Assembly (NCBI RefSeq): GCF_013167455.1
Contig: NZ_CP038328.1
DNA from: Escherichia coli O157:H7
GTDB taxonomy: Bacteria > Pseudomonadota > Gammaproteobacteria > Enterobacterales > Enterobacteriaceae
DNA length: 64,000 bases
Reading direction: 5' to 3' (one strand)
The position numbers were made by a program. Below, one piece after another: positions 42,001-45,000 of this stretch. Within the stretch, counting starts at the first letter, position 1. Every line of letters starts with the position of its first letter.

Positions 42001-45000
42001 AGATCTGTACTCAGGCATGGGATGAGATCTGCGTTATTATCATCTGTAATAAAAGTAATATCCCGACTAGTCATAAATTCGTCGTTCAAATAAATGTCGA
42101 CCCGATATGTACCAGGTGGTGCCTCGCGTCCCTTAGTAAAGGCGGATAAATCGACAGATTCAGCAAGATCATTGCTTAAAAACCGTGGATTAAAATAATA
42201 CTCTGCGTCAACGGGAAATACCGCAGTTGCTAAGCTAAGGGCAATGGTAAGCCGTGCAAAGCGAGGCAGTAGTAACACCTGATGCATACGATATGCCTTA
42301 AATGCGGCACGAAAGGCTGTCATTATTAATTCCGATTGAGTTTATTATTAATTAGGTCACTGGCTTACTGCATGGTTGCCTTAATACGCGGAGTTAATGC
42401 GCCGTAATCATTGATCGTCTGAAAACTGATATCCCCGGTGGCAGCATGCGGGATATCCACCGACACTTCACCTTTTGGCGGCACCATGGTGTTTGGGAGA
42501 TTGCTATTTCCTGCTTTCATATTTGTTACGGTAATGAAGTAGGGCGTTGGATTAATAAGAGTGAGATTGCTACCGCTGCGACGAAACCGAAGCATTGCAG
42601 GCGCTTCTTCAGGTGCCATTGCCAGGTTCGTGGGCCGATAAAACATTTTTATGCGGCTAATAATTGCCAGCTGTAATGTATTCTCATTCTTCTGGTCTTT
42701 TTCCATAGCAGGAATAGCTTTAACATTAACCCAGAACAGGCTTTCACGGTCGCCGGGTAACTGATGATTAGTGGCGTTGATTATCCGCAGCGTATTCTCT
42801 TTTTTACCTTGCATGGAAAAAAGAGGTGGGGTAATGACAAACTGGGTGTCTTTTTGGTCACCAGCATTTTCTATCCATGACTGAATGAGATAGACACTGG
42901 CAGGATCATTATTCGTGACAGGCAATAAAACCTGTTTCTGGTTTGCCGGATAAATTACCCGCGTCGCACCCAGTGCGACAGCTGCGTTGGCAACGGTGCT
43001 ATGGCAAGCAAAGAGCAATAAAAGTAACACTGTCGCCATAAAGGAAATAGAGTAGGGGGTACGCGTAGTTTGCATCTGATGCATTCTCCATGTGTTAAGA
43101 GGATAAGCGGGAAAACCGTTACATCAGACAATCGGTAAATGTTGCTAATACATTGGCGAGTCACCGGGTTTCCAGACTTAATGCGTTTGTAATAAAGGTT
43201 GGTTCTCTTTTAATAGGAAAACCTTGCTAAAAAGTAAATATTTTTAATAACAGTAAGTTTAACTACTGTTGTTTATTGAACGTTTAGATATTATGTGATT
43301 TTTCATAGCGCTCCAAATACAAACCACTCATCATTAATAATGAGATTCACATTGGTGAATTGCTCGGGTGTGCGTAGCCATGCCACACACACCCTGTTTT
43401 AATTTCAGATGCCGTATAGCCACCTTAATATTGAATTATAGATATTGAACTTTGAAGGTCGCATCTGCGTTTGCAGTACCAGCTACGGACTGCCCGAGAG
43501 CAATATAACGAGCCTGGAATGGTAGTATATTCGTGCCATCAATCAAGTCGGTTTTAGCACTAAAAGTGGCCCCATCAAGTATTAATACCTCACCCGTACG
43601 GTCCAAAATTTGAATACCGACATTTTGGGCAGAGCCTGCCGCTGAACTCTGCAGCGCTAACGTATCGTCATTACTGGTGACAGTAGTACCCAGGAATGCA
43701 ACAGCTGCATTACTGGAAACATTGGTATCACAATCATTCAGCTTGATATTGAAGCCAACGGCGGAGCTGAGGTCACCCGCTTTAGCCAGGCGAGAAGAAC
43801 GAACCTGACCCAGCTCAACCGTTTGGTTCATTGATTCGGAATCAATCGCACAAGCGGCATTTACCACTTCACCTTTAAAATGAATAACACCGCCATTAAC
43901 AGTGGTCGTTACTGATTCATCACCCTCGGCTGCGCTTACCGCAGCAGACGACATCGCCAACACAGAAACGACAATCATACCAACATGTTTGAGTTTCATA
44001 ATTCTCCAAAATTTATATTTAAGTAGCTGAATAAAGAGAGTTAACAATTAAGTCATTCTGTTATTGCTTATAAAACAAGAATCATTCTTGATTGGTTGTT
44101 GCCCTGAGAATATAGTTTCCAGGGTTATTACATTTCACGAAGAACGATAATATCTTTAAATCACAAGGACACCTAATCACAACAAGTTTATTGCTGCACT
44201 TGTTGAAGAGAGTATTTGCAAAAACATTTTATGTCGCTAAATAACATGACGATTTCATTATGCATGTTATTTATAAACCGTGACTAAACAGAATATTATT
44301 GCGAACAAGGGAAGTGTCAGGAAAGGTCAAGGGCTACTAATGGTTTATATGGCTATAAATCATTAGCTATAGTTAATGTTTGCCTGGTGTAACTAACACC
44401 GAATTGCTCTAAACAGATAAGTGCAGGGTTTATTAAAGCTGACCGACAGACTTTCTTAACCTGGTAATATCTCTCTTGGGTGACTCTCCAAACATCCGCA
44501 AATATTCCCGTCGGAAATGGGATAAGCTTTCGTAACCGACAGCATAGGCTGCTGTGGTGACATCGTAATGTTCATTCAGCATCGTTCGCCTGACTTCATT
44601 GAGACGTAGCCATTTCTGATACCGGAGTGGACTCATTCCCGCAAGCTGCCTGAAGTGTTGATGGAAAGAGGGCGTGCTCATTTGCACGCGGTTTGCCAGC
44701 TTGAGTCTTCAACGCTGGGAAGATGCGGCAAACGGCAAATCGGCATACCAGCCAGCCTATATCCGTCATGCACAGGCCAATTATGAAAGAGGAGAAGCTT
44801 AAGTTCTGGAATCCTGAACGAATAACGACTACCGGAAAATCACTTCGTATCACTCAGATACGATTTAACATAATATACATTATGCGCACCAATATAAACC
44901 AAGGGAGAATCTAGTCGTTGGCGGTCATGATTGTCCTGCTCATTAACAACGACCAAACCCCATATCTTACTCTTACTTAATACCGTATTCTCGGCTTAAC

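What the first reader, a model, noticed from the sequence alone, without database searches (positions are those of the whole stretch)
43366..43394. Strong stem-loop between the F9 major subunit and chaperone genes
GGGTGTGCGTAGCCATGCCACACACACCC forms a GC-rich hairpin in the 350-bp gap after the major pilin gene. Chaperone-usher operons commonly use such intra-operon stem-loops to stabilise the pilin transcript and set subunit stoichiometry. It lacks a U-tract on the coding (minus) strand, so it is more likely an mRNA-processing or stability element than a full terminator.
Basis: inference. Interest (0 to 1): 0.25.

Follow-up and report, generated by a model that had tools for sequence, protein, structure and literature searches.

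The report
Pilin mRNA 3' hairpin, F9 operon
A very stable RNA hairpin sits 41 bases after the major-pilin gene of the E. coli F9 fimbrial operon; it probably shields that message from degradation so that more pilin than assembly machinery is made, which is an ordinary, well-known kind of element that had not been annotated here.

Summary
At 43366-43394 the operon (minus-strand) transcript folds into a perfect 13-bp stem with a 3-nt loop (-22.4 kcal/mol, z -4.5). None of 1000 shuffles of the 360-nt gap reaches this energy.

The plus strand has two C·A mismatches and folds more weakly (-14.6), so the structure favours the mRNA strand. There is no U-tract after it (2 U in 8), no Rfam match, and one copy per genome.

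The hairpin segment is identical in 3380 of 3590 E. coli genomes that carry it. The adjacent 35-nt segments match O157 in only about 275. All sampled variants still fold at -20 kcal/mol or better.

The element is confined to E. coli F9. Relatives carry a different conserved hairpin at this position, the known CsrA-binding sRNA FimR2. E. coli F9 keeps only a degenerate 5' half of that element.

Best reading: a 3' protective or processing-barrier stem-loop that stabilises the pilin cistron ahead of a 290-nt AU-rich untranslated spacer, with read-through to the chaperone and usher genes. This function is inferred. No transcript 3'-end data were found.

It is a new member of a known kind, of low to moderate interest.

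The parts
43366..43394 (-). The hairpin. RNA is GGGUGUGUGUGGC-AUG-GCUACGCACACCC: 13-bp stem (two G·U pairs, U8·G22 and G11·U19) and a 3-nt loop.
   Evidence: fold, shuffles, single occurrence in the window. (conservation). (variants).
43436..43999 (-). F9 major fimbrial subunit gene (fmlA / Z2200 / ECs2113), stop codon at 43436-43438. This is the cistron the hairpin would protect.
   Evidence: RefSeq annotation of the identical O157:H7 sequence. Pfam Fimbrial PF00419, E 5.9e-31. Gene naming from PMC7766294.
43395..43435 (-). 41-nt AU-rich stretch between the stop codon and the hairpin. It holds a degenerate 5' half of a FimR2-like element (UUAAGGUGGCUAUACGGCA), with both GGA motifs and the 3' arm lost.
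   Evidence: Alignment with the Citrobacter F9-like and E. coli fimA 3' UTRs. FimR2-type covariance model finds no match here.
43076..43365 (-). 290-nt untranslated AU-rich spacer (34% G+C) between the hairpin and the chaperone start. Proposed site of endonucleolytic cleavage or premature termination.
   Evidence: 3.8 RNWUU motifs per 100 nt against 1.6-1.7 in the flanking coding sequences. G-poor (9-12% G, C above G) in the middle of the gap. No fimI remnant. No promoter-like site on the minus strand. Only short GTG/TTG ORFs.
42365..43075 (-). F9 periplasmic chaperone gene, the first cistron downstream of the hairpin. GGAGA lies 9 nt upstream of the ATG at 43075.
   Evidence: RefSeq start. 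(PapD_N and PapD_C). Sequence.
44257..44286 (-). F9 operon promoter (-35 TAGTCA, 18-nt spacer, -10 CATAAT). The transcription start is about 251 nt upstream of the fmlA ATG (about 44250).
   Evidence: Promoter-like site. It matches the promoter mapped by 5' RACE in CFT073 (-10 CATAAT, -35 TAGTCG, 18-bp spacer, start site 251 nt upstream of the ATG; PMC3966885).
37638..42323 (-). The rest of the operon downstream of the chaperone: usher (39672-42323), ydeS (39128-39658), ydeR (38612-39115) and the adhesin gene ydeQ (37638-38552).

Best explanation
The hairpin is a cis-acting RNA element of the F9 polycistronic mRNA. It acts as a 3' protective or processing-barrier stem-loop for the major-pilin cistron.

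Proposed steps:
1. Transcription starts at the mapped F9 promoter and runs through fmlA, the hairpin and a 290-nt untranslated AU-rich spacer into the chaperone, usher and minor-subunit genes.
2. The ribosome-free spacer is cut by RNase E, or transcription stops there through Rho.
3. 3'-to-5' exonucleases (PNPase, RNase II) then trim back and stall at the 13-bp G+C-rich stem.
4. This leaves a stable monocistronic fmlA mRNA, while the distal part of the transcript decays faster.
5. The result is more pilin message than assembly-machinery message.

Shown here: the structure, its strand preference, its position outside the translated region, the lack of a U-tract, and its conservation. Inferred: the cleavage or termination in the spacer, the exonuclease block, and the effect on stoichiometry.
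For: - Stability: -22.4 kcal/mol, z -4.5, and 0 of 1000 shuffles of the gap reach it.
- Strand preference: the two imperfect positions are G·U on the transcript strand and C·A on the other. The energies are -22.4 against -14.6, and z is -4.5 against -2.3.
- Position: the hairpin starts 41 nt after the stop codon, beyond the reach of a terminating ribosome.
- Not an intrinsic terminator: no U-tract, and the scan did not call it.
- Read-through: pilin and chaperone mRNAs change together in a published array (PMC2648988).
- Conservation: the 35 nt centred on the hairpin are identical in 3380 of 3590 E. coli genomes. The two adjacent 35-nt segments are identical to O157 in 275 and 273. In six divergent strains 1 of 29 hairpin columns varies against 94 of 335 in the rest of the gap (Fisher p 0.0013), and it is the least variable 29-column window of the gap.
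- Variants keep the fold: G22 to A turns U·G into U-A (-24.2). G22 to U and a double change with a register shift both still give -20.
- Spacer: it is AU-rich and enriched in RNase E-type RNWUU motifs.
- Precedents: the malE-malF 3' protective structure, the RNase-resistant 3' hairpin of papA mRNA, and widespread protective hairpins in E. coli operons (PMC5927463). A hairpin without a U-tract also follows the major-subunit gene in about 45 of 55 related operons.
Against: - No transcript data (3' ends, half-lives, coverage step) exist for F9 in the literature I could search.
- The element is restricted to E. coli and nearly invariant, so true covariation cannot be tested. The conservation contrast rests on few independent lineages.
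- The strand-asymmetry argument is modest. If the two mismatches arose by transitions, the chance that both give G·U on the transcript strand is about 1 in 4.
- F9 is H-NS-silenced and poorly expressed under most conditions (PMC3966885, PMC12890032).
- The positional counterpart in fim operons acts as a trans-acting sRNA, not simply as a stabiliser (PMC9723502).
Confidence: 0.55

Rival explanations
1. Partial transcription attenuator. The hairpin itself makes a fraction of RNA polymerases stop just after fmlA. Stoichiometry would then be set at the level of transcription rather than decay.
For: - Strong G+C-rich hairpin directly after the pilin ORF.
- papA mRNA ends at a terminator structure (PMC5927463).
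- No promoter-like site on the minus strand in the gap that could re-start transcription.
Against: - E. coli intrinsic termination needs a U-tract. The tail GAGCAAUUCACC has 2 U in 8.
- The terminator scan did not call it.
- Chaperone mRNA changes together with pilin mRNA.
Confidence: 0.15
2. No selected function. The hairpin is a fortuitous or slippage-born palindrome whose arms are (GU)n and (CA)n-like runs, sitting in a decaying, rarely expressed operon.
For: - Found only in E. coli F9. The closest ortholog, Citrobacter sp. JGM124, lacks it, and its gap is not alignable.
- The arms alternate purine and pyrimidine.
- F9 is poorly expressed.
- No covariation is available.
Against: - It is the least variable 29 nt of the gap (p 0.0013).
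- It is identical in 94% of carrier genomes while its flanks diverge.
- The mismatches are wobble pairs only on the mRNA strand.
- All sampled variants keep -20 kcal/mol or better.
Confidence: 0.12
3. Structural module of a small RNA derived from the fmlA 3' UTR, processed by RNase E. It would be a functional successor of FimR2, and the hairpin would give the fragment its stability.
For: - The same position in fim operons yields FimR2, which is 35 nt long, RNase E-processed and independent of Hfq (PMC9723502).
- The E. coli F9 3' UTR still aligns with the 5' half of that element.
- RNWUU motifs flank the hairpin.
Against: - Both GGA (CsrA-binding) motifs are lost.
- The FimR2-type covariance model finds nothing in the F9 3' UTR at E up to 10.
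- There is no U-tail for Hfq.
- No small RNA is annotated or reported here (no features under the match).
Confidence: 0.1
4. Plus-strand or bidirectional terminator that stops antisense transcription coming out of the chaperone and usher genes.
For: On the plus strand the hairpin is followed by UGUUUUAAUUU, with 5 U in 8 and 8 in 12.
Against: - The plus-strand stem has two C·A mismatches (-14.6, z -2.3, 6 of 200 shuffles as good; 12 of 500 shuffles of the gap).
- No plus-strand gene ends here.
- In most lineages the tract is weaker, UGUUUCAAUUU.
- The scan did not call it.
Confidence: 0.05
5. DNA-level palindrome bound by a dimeric regulator.
For: Inverted repeat of 13 bp with a 3-bp spacer inside a regulated, H-NS-bound operon.
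Against: - G+C-rich, 11 of 13 matched as DNA, and about 880 bp downstream of the promoter.
- The imperfections are exactly those tolerated in RNA.
- No second copy exists anywhere in the window or the genome.
Confidence: 0.03

Closest known systems
3' protective (exonuclease-blocking) stem-loops inside operons, such as the malE-malF intercistronic structure and the protective hairpins mapped across E. coli operons (Dar & Sorek 2018, PMC5927463)
   Same: - Stable hairpin just 3' of the cistron that needs the higher output.
- On the mRNA strand.
- No U-tract.
- Followed by a segment open to endonuclease attack.
- The first gene of the operon is the one favoured.
   Different: - The malE-malF element is a multi-copy REP sequence, whereas this hairpin is single-copy.
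- Many of the Dar & Sorek structures lie inside the next coding region, whereas this one lies in a long untranslated gap.
- No decay data exist for F9.
papA mRNA 3' terminator hairpin and papBA differential decay in P pili (as summarised in PMC5927463)
   Same: - Chaperone-usher operon.
- An RNase-resistant hairpin after the major-pilin gene gives a stable pilin mRNA in excess over the distal genes.
   Different: - The pap structure is described as a terminator, whereas the F9 hairpin lacks a U-tract.
- papA is also protected at its 5' end after RNase E cleavage, and nothing comparable was examined here.
- There is no sequence similarity.
FimR2, the 35-nt sRNA from the fimA 3' UTR (fimA-fimI intergenic region) of E. 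coli and Salmonella (Raad et al. 2022, PMC9723502)
   Same: - Same position (first tens of nucleotides after the major-subunit stop codon) in the sister operon family.
- Hairpin without a U-tract.
- The F9 3' UTR aligns with the FimR2 5' half.
   Different: - FimR2 has a short 4-6 bp stem with GGA in the loop and a second, single-stranded GGA, and it binds CsrA.
- The F9 hairpin is 13 bp with an AUG loop, has no GGA, lies about 20 nt further 3', and is not matched by a FimR2-type covariance model.
Rho-independent (intrinsic) terminators
   Same: G+C-rich stem-loop located after a stop codon.
   Different: No U-tract on the transcript strand, a mid-operon position, and evidence of co-expression downstream.

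Membership tests
Intrinsic (Rho-independent) terminator | G+C-rich stem-loop in the nascent RNA | tested here: met
   13-bp stem, 66% G+C, -22.4 kcal/mol.
Intrinsic (Rho-independent) terminator | U-rich tract immediately 3' of the stem on the transcribed strand | tested here: not met
   Tail is GAGCAAUUCACC, with 2 U in the first 8. Not called by the scan.
Intrinsic (Rho-independent) terminator | Transcripts end there; downstream genes are not co-transcribed | not testable with these tools
   Only indirect evidence: c1936 and c1935 change together in an array (PMC2648988). No promoter-like site in the gap.
3' protective / processing-barrier stem-loop (differential operon decay) | Thermodynamically stable hairpin on the mRNA strand | tested here: met
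   -22.4 on the minus strand against -14.6 on the plus strand; 0 of 1000 gap shuffles reach it.
3' protective / processing-barrier stem-loop (differential operon decay) | Located 3' of the favoured cistron, outside the translated region, with an unprotected segment downstream | tested here: met
   Starts 41 nt after the fmlA stop codon. Followed by 290 nt of untranslated, 34% G+C RNA enriched in RNWUU motifs.
3' protective / processing-barrier stem-loop (differential operon decay) | Conserved among relatives that share the operon | tested here: met
   Identical in 3380 of 3590 E. coli genomes. Least variable window of the gap. Absent outside E. coli.
3' protective / processing-barrier stem-loop (differential operon decay) | Stable RNA 3' ends at the base of the hairpin and a longer half-life for the upstream segment | not testable with these tools
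   No Term-seq, northern or rifampicin data for F9 found.
FimR2 sRNA (fimA 3' UTR) | Lies in the 3' UTR of a type-1-like major subunit gene | tested here: met
FimR2 sRNA (fimA 3' UTR) | Sequence and structure homology: short G+C stem with GGA in the loop plus an upstream single-stranded GGA | tested here: not met
   A covariance model built from 39 fim-type 3' UTRs finds nothing in the F9 3' UTR at E up to 10. There is no GGA in 43366-43435. Only a degenerate 5' half aligns.
FimR2 sRNA (fimA 3' UTR) | RNase E-dependent release of a discrete small RNA; CsrA binding | not testable with these tools
   Needs northern blot or CLIP.
REP / BIME dispersed palindromes | Many copies per genome with the REP consensus | tested here: not met
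   One place per genome in all 3590 carrier genomes. One match in the window at up to 3 mismatches.
Any curated RNA family (Rfam 15) | Covariance-model match | tested here: not met
   No relevant match at E up to 10 over 42300-44500. The two weak hits lie elsewhere and are chance-level.

The most novel reading that the evidence does not exclude
In the E. coli F9 lineage the ancestral FimR2-like, CsrA-binding 3' UTR sRNA was lost. That element is still present after the major-subunit gene of the Citrobacter F9-like operon and of nearly all fim operons. In this reading it was replaced by a new, much stronger hairpin that anchors a different, so far undetected, RNase E-processed small RNA with its own targets. 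That would uncouple F9 expression from the Csr network.
Probability: 0.08. Interest if true: 0.5.

Novelty: new member of a known kind. Interest (0 to 1): 0.25.

Why it matters
If correct, it explains how F9 (Fml) fimbriae make the pilin in large excess over the chaperone and usher from one promoter. These fimbriae are implicated in cattle and plant colonisation by O157:H7 and in chronic cystitis by uropathogenic E. coli.

It also gives a defined 29-nt target for tuning F9 expression, and a warning for constructs that delete or clone fmlA with or without its 3' flank.

The comparison also shows that the slot just after the pilin stop codon is a recurrent site for RNA elements in type-1-like operons, and that the element there can be swapped during evolution (FimR2 in fim, a different hairpin in E. 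coli F9).

It does not change any general principle.

Tried and rejected
- **Rfam:** an E-value-mode search over 42300-44500 gave only two chance-level hits elsewhere. A gathering-mode search on the fim and F9 loci L060, L010, L008 and L007 gave nothing, so FimR2 is not in Rfam 15 either.
- **Dispersed repeat or REP:** rejected, because the element is single-copy per genome.
- **Gap as a decayed fimI gene:** tblastn with nine FimI proteins gave only noise (E above 0.1). The gap is also not alignable with the Citrobacter gap.
- **Small ORFs:** only GTG/TTG ORFs of 35 aa or fewer overlap the hairpin, and single-base indels among strains argue against coding.
- **Internal promoter in the gap:** none at the scan threshold on the minus strand.
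- **RfaH ops element in the F9 leader:** none; the window hits are elsewhere and at chance level.
- **Orthologs for covariation, genome collection:** the scan found 58 fimA-like loci. Only E. coli carries this hairpin.
- **Orthologs for covariation, metagenomes:** a scan anchored on the upstream flank returned 66 loci, all E. coli-like. Of these, 63 had the identical hairpin, 2 had G22 to U and 1 had G22 to A.
- **FimR2 membership:** a covariance model of 39 fim-type 3' UTRs gave no hit in any E. coli F9 3' UTR.
- **Literature:** searches for F9 transcript 3' ends, northern blots or per-gene RNA-seq found only promoter mapping, H-NS and temperature control, and microarray fold changes. Two searches were wasted on unspecific terms.
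- **Rho loading site:** the middle of the gap is G-poor with C above G. Overall C is low, so this is compatible with Rho but not diagnostic.
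Full report
**Where this is**

The window is E. coli O157:H7. Positions 43000-44100 are 100% identical to strain PV15-279. There RefSeq annotates, all on the minus strand:
- a FimA-type major subunit gene (window 43436-43999);
- a fimbrial chaperone gene (42365-43075);
- an usher gene, then ydeS, ydeR and ydeQ, with hipA/hipB upstream.

This is the F9 (Fml) operon (PMC3966885, PMC7766294). Pfam confirms the Fimbrial and PapD domains.

The promoter-like site TAGTCA-18-CATAAT at 44286-44257 matches the F9 promoter mapped by 5' RACE in CFT073, whose transcription start lies 251 nt upstream of the ATG. The hairpin therefore lies inside a transcript that starts near 44250 and runs leftward.

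**The observation**

| Measure | Minus strand (mRNA) | Plus strand |
|---|---|---|
| Structure | 13 uninterrupted pairs, two G·U, loop AUG | two C·A mismatches |
| Energy (kcal/mol) | -22.4 | -14.6 |
| z against shuffles | -4.54 | -2.34 |
| Shuffles as good | 0 of 200 | 6 of 200 |

Further checks on chance:
- Shuffling the whole 360-nt gap 1000 times gave a best local structure of -10.5 +/- 2.1, never beyond -18.1, against -23.8 observed. On the plus strand 12 of 500 shuffles matched the observed value.
- It is the fourth strongest local fold on the minus strand of the whole window.
- It is an island of 66% G+C in a gap of about 34-36%.

The hairpin begins 41 nt after the fmlA stop codon. It is followed by GAGCAAUUCACC, with 2 U in 8. 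The terminator scan reports nothing here on either strand.

**What it is not**

- No Rfam family matches it.
- It is not a dispersed repeat. It occurs once in the window at up to three mismatches, and once per genome in all 3590 of 5426 complete E. coli genomes that carry it.
- The 360-nt gap is not a decayed fimI gene.
- The gap holds no credible ORF.
- The gap has no promoter-like site on the operon strand.
- There is no ops element.

**Conservation within E. coli**

The 35 nt centred on the hairpin are identical in 3380 of 3590 carrier genomes. Another 204 differ at one position and 6 at two or three. The adjacent 35-nt segments are identical to O157 in only 275 (3' side) and 273 (5' side) genomes, and most genomes differ at 2-5 positions.

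In an alignment of six divergent strains, one of them only 88% identical overall, 1 of 29 hairpin columns varies against 94 of 335 elsewhere in the gap (Fisher one-sided p 0.0013). The hairpin is the least variable 29-column window. These contrasts rest on a limited number of independent lineages.

I sampled six of the non-identical genomes:
- three differ only in the three flanking bases included in the query;
- one has G22 to A, turning the U8·G22 wobble into U-A (-24.2 in a 39-nt context);
- one has G22 to U, making a U·U mismatch (-20.0);
- one has a double change at the stem base that shifts the register and still gives -20.0.

A metagenome scan anchored only on the upstream flank gave 66 loci. 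Of these, 63 had the identical hairpin, 2 had G22 to U and 1 had G22 to A. Every variant seen keeps a strong hairpin, and the one recurrently variable position is a wobble pair.

**Relatives outside E. coli**

A genome-collection scan with the F9 major subunit found 58 loci. Only E. coli carries this hairpin. Only two other loci share the architecture of major subunit, long gap, then chaperone: Citrobacter sp. JGM124 (76% identity, 451-nt gap) and a Pseudomonas chlororaphis locus. All the others have fimI about 70 nt after the major-subunit gene.

In about 45 of 55 loci a small G+C hairpin without a U-tract sits 10-30 nt after the stop codon. Its consensus is CGGGCC-AGGAN-GGCCCG-UUAUCC, preceded by a conserved CAGGGAAG box.

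It shows compensatory changes, GGGCC/GGCCC to GAGCC/GGCUC and to AGGCC/GGCCU:
- 14 cells changed on both sides, against 2.8 in shuffles;
- 0 of 500 shuffles reached the covariation score;
- slid controls were far lower.

This element is the published sRNA FimR2. It is 35 nt long, comes from the fimA 3' UTR, is released by RNase E, has one GGA in a single-stranded stretch and one in the loop, and binds CsrA (PMC9723502). It is not in Rfam 15.

The Citrobacter F9-like operon retains a FimR2-like hairpin (GGGCAAGGAUAGCCC) with both GGA motifs. E. coli F9 aligns only over the 5' half: UUAAGGU for UUAAGGA, and UAUACGGCA for CAUAGGGCA. It has lost the loop GGA and the 3' arm. A covariance model of 39 fim-type 3' UTRs finds nothing in any E. 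coli F9 3' UTR at E up to 10.

So the F9 hairpin is not a FimR2 homolog. It is a different, much stronger structure about 20 nt further downstream, occupying the same functional slot.

**Mechanism**

The features fit the known class of 3' protective stem-loops that cause differential decay within operons:
- a stable hairpin on the mRNA strand, just beyond the reach of the terminating ribosome;
- no U-tract;
- 290 nt of ribosome-free, AU-rich RNA downstream, with 3.8 RNWUU motifs per 100 nt against 1.6-1.7 in the neighbouring coding regions;
- a G-poor middle section where C exceeds G.

Precedents are the malE-malF structure, papA, and the many cases mapped by Dar and Sorek (PMC5927463).

I propose that cleavage by RNase E, or Rho-dependent stopping, in the spacer is followed by exonucleolytic trimming back to the stem. 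This would leave a stable fmlA message. Read-through supplies the chaperone, which has its own GGAGA 9 nt before the ATG at 43075, and the usher and minor subunits.

Read-through is supported only indirectly. In an APEC pst mutant the pilin (-3.23-fold) and chaperone (-3.72-fold) mRNAs fall together (PMC2648988). The cleavage, the trimming and the stoichiometric effect are all inferred. I found no 3'-end, northern or half-life data for F9.

**Rivals**

- **Hairpin-only attenuator.** Possible but disfavoured by the missing U-tract.
- **Neutral palindrome born from GU/CA-type repeats.** Disfavoured by the conservation contrast and the wobble asymmetry. It is not excluded, because the element is young (E. 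coli only) and covariation cannot be tested.
- **3' UTR-derived sRNA.** Suggested by the FimR2 precedent, but nothing else supports it.
- **Plus-strand terminator.** It has a U-rich tail (5 of 8) but a weak, mismatched stem and nothing to terminate.
- **DNA operator.** Unlikely.

**Verdict**

This is a new, unannotated member of a well-known kind of element. The modest twist is that it replaced a FimR2-like element at the same position. Interest is 0.25.

Noticed in passing
L009-L063, 10-60 nt after the major-subunit stop codon (for example L014:2990-3030, L060:2985-3015): The fimA-fimI intergenic region is conserved across Klebsiella, Citrobacter, Raoultella, Kluyvera, Enterobacter, Serratia, Pantoea and others. 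The pattern is a CAGGGAAG box followed by a GGGCC-AGGAN-GGCCC hairpin, with compensatory GAGCC/GGCUC and AGGCC/GGCCU variants. This is the published sRNA FimR2 (PMC9723502). It has no Rfam 15 family.
   Followed up: yes
L008:3084-3100 (Citrobacter sp. JGM124): An F9-like operon (76% identical major subunit, no fimI, 451-nt gap before the chaperone) keeps a FimR2-like hairpin GGGCAAGGAUAGCCC and an upstream AAGGAC motif. E. coli F9 has lost both GGA motifs. My fim-type covariance model scores it only 8 bits (E 5.4), because the 4-bp E. coli-type variant is rare in the training set.
   Followed up: partly
L057:87-129 (Serratia sp. H1w): The FimR2-type model gives a clear hit (32 bits, E 1e-5) upstream of the 35%-identical fimbrial gene that brought this locus in. 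This suggests a fimA-like gene just upstream on this short contig.
   Followed up: no
window 44973-49517: Compared with strain PV15-279, hipA is truncated at its N-terminus here (351-aa ORF with only HipA_C) and hipB is missing. This fits the statement for strain Sakai in PMC7766294. The neighbouring autotransporter is split into 655-aa and 466-aa ORFs, and RefSeq calls it frameshifted.
   Followed up: partly
window 46110-46150 (minus) and 46075-46100 (minus): A strong hairpin (-22.8 kcal/mol, AAGCCGCAUG...CAUGCGGCUU) lies directly after the autotransporter stop codon. It is followed by a second small hairpin with a UCCCUUUUAU tail. This looks like a tandem terminator.
   Followed up: no
window 43075 vs 43084: The mechanical ORF list starts the chaperone at the ATG at 43084, and RefSeq starts it at 43075. 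The GGAGA motif abuts the first ATG and lies 9 nt before the second, which favours 43075.
   Followed up: partly
window 3052-3094: A canonical REP-type palindrome (GCCGGATGCGGCGTGAACGCCTTATCCGGCCTA) appears among the strongest local folds on both strands.
   Followed up: no
window about 50690-52900: A cluster of very stable local structures (-21 to -24 kcal/mol on both strands) lies in a stretch that looks much more G+C-rich than the F9 region. It may be foreign or compositionally distinct DNA.
   Followed up: no
window 44433-44702: A helix-turn-helix pseudogene (AraC-like, missing its N-terminus) lies between hipA and the F9 promoter. PMC3966885 notes that this 5' region varies among lineages and carries three alternative putative regulators.
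   Followed up: no
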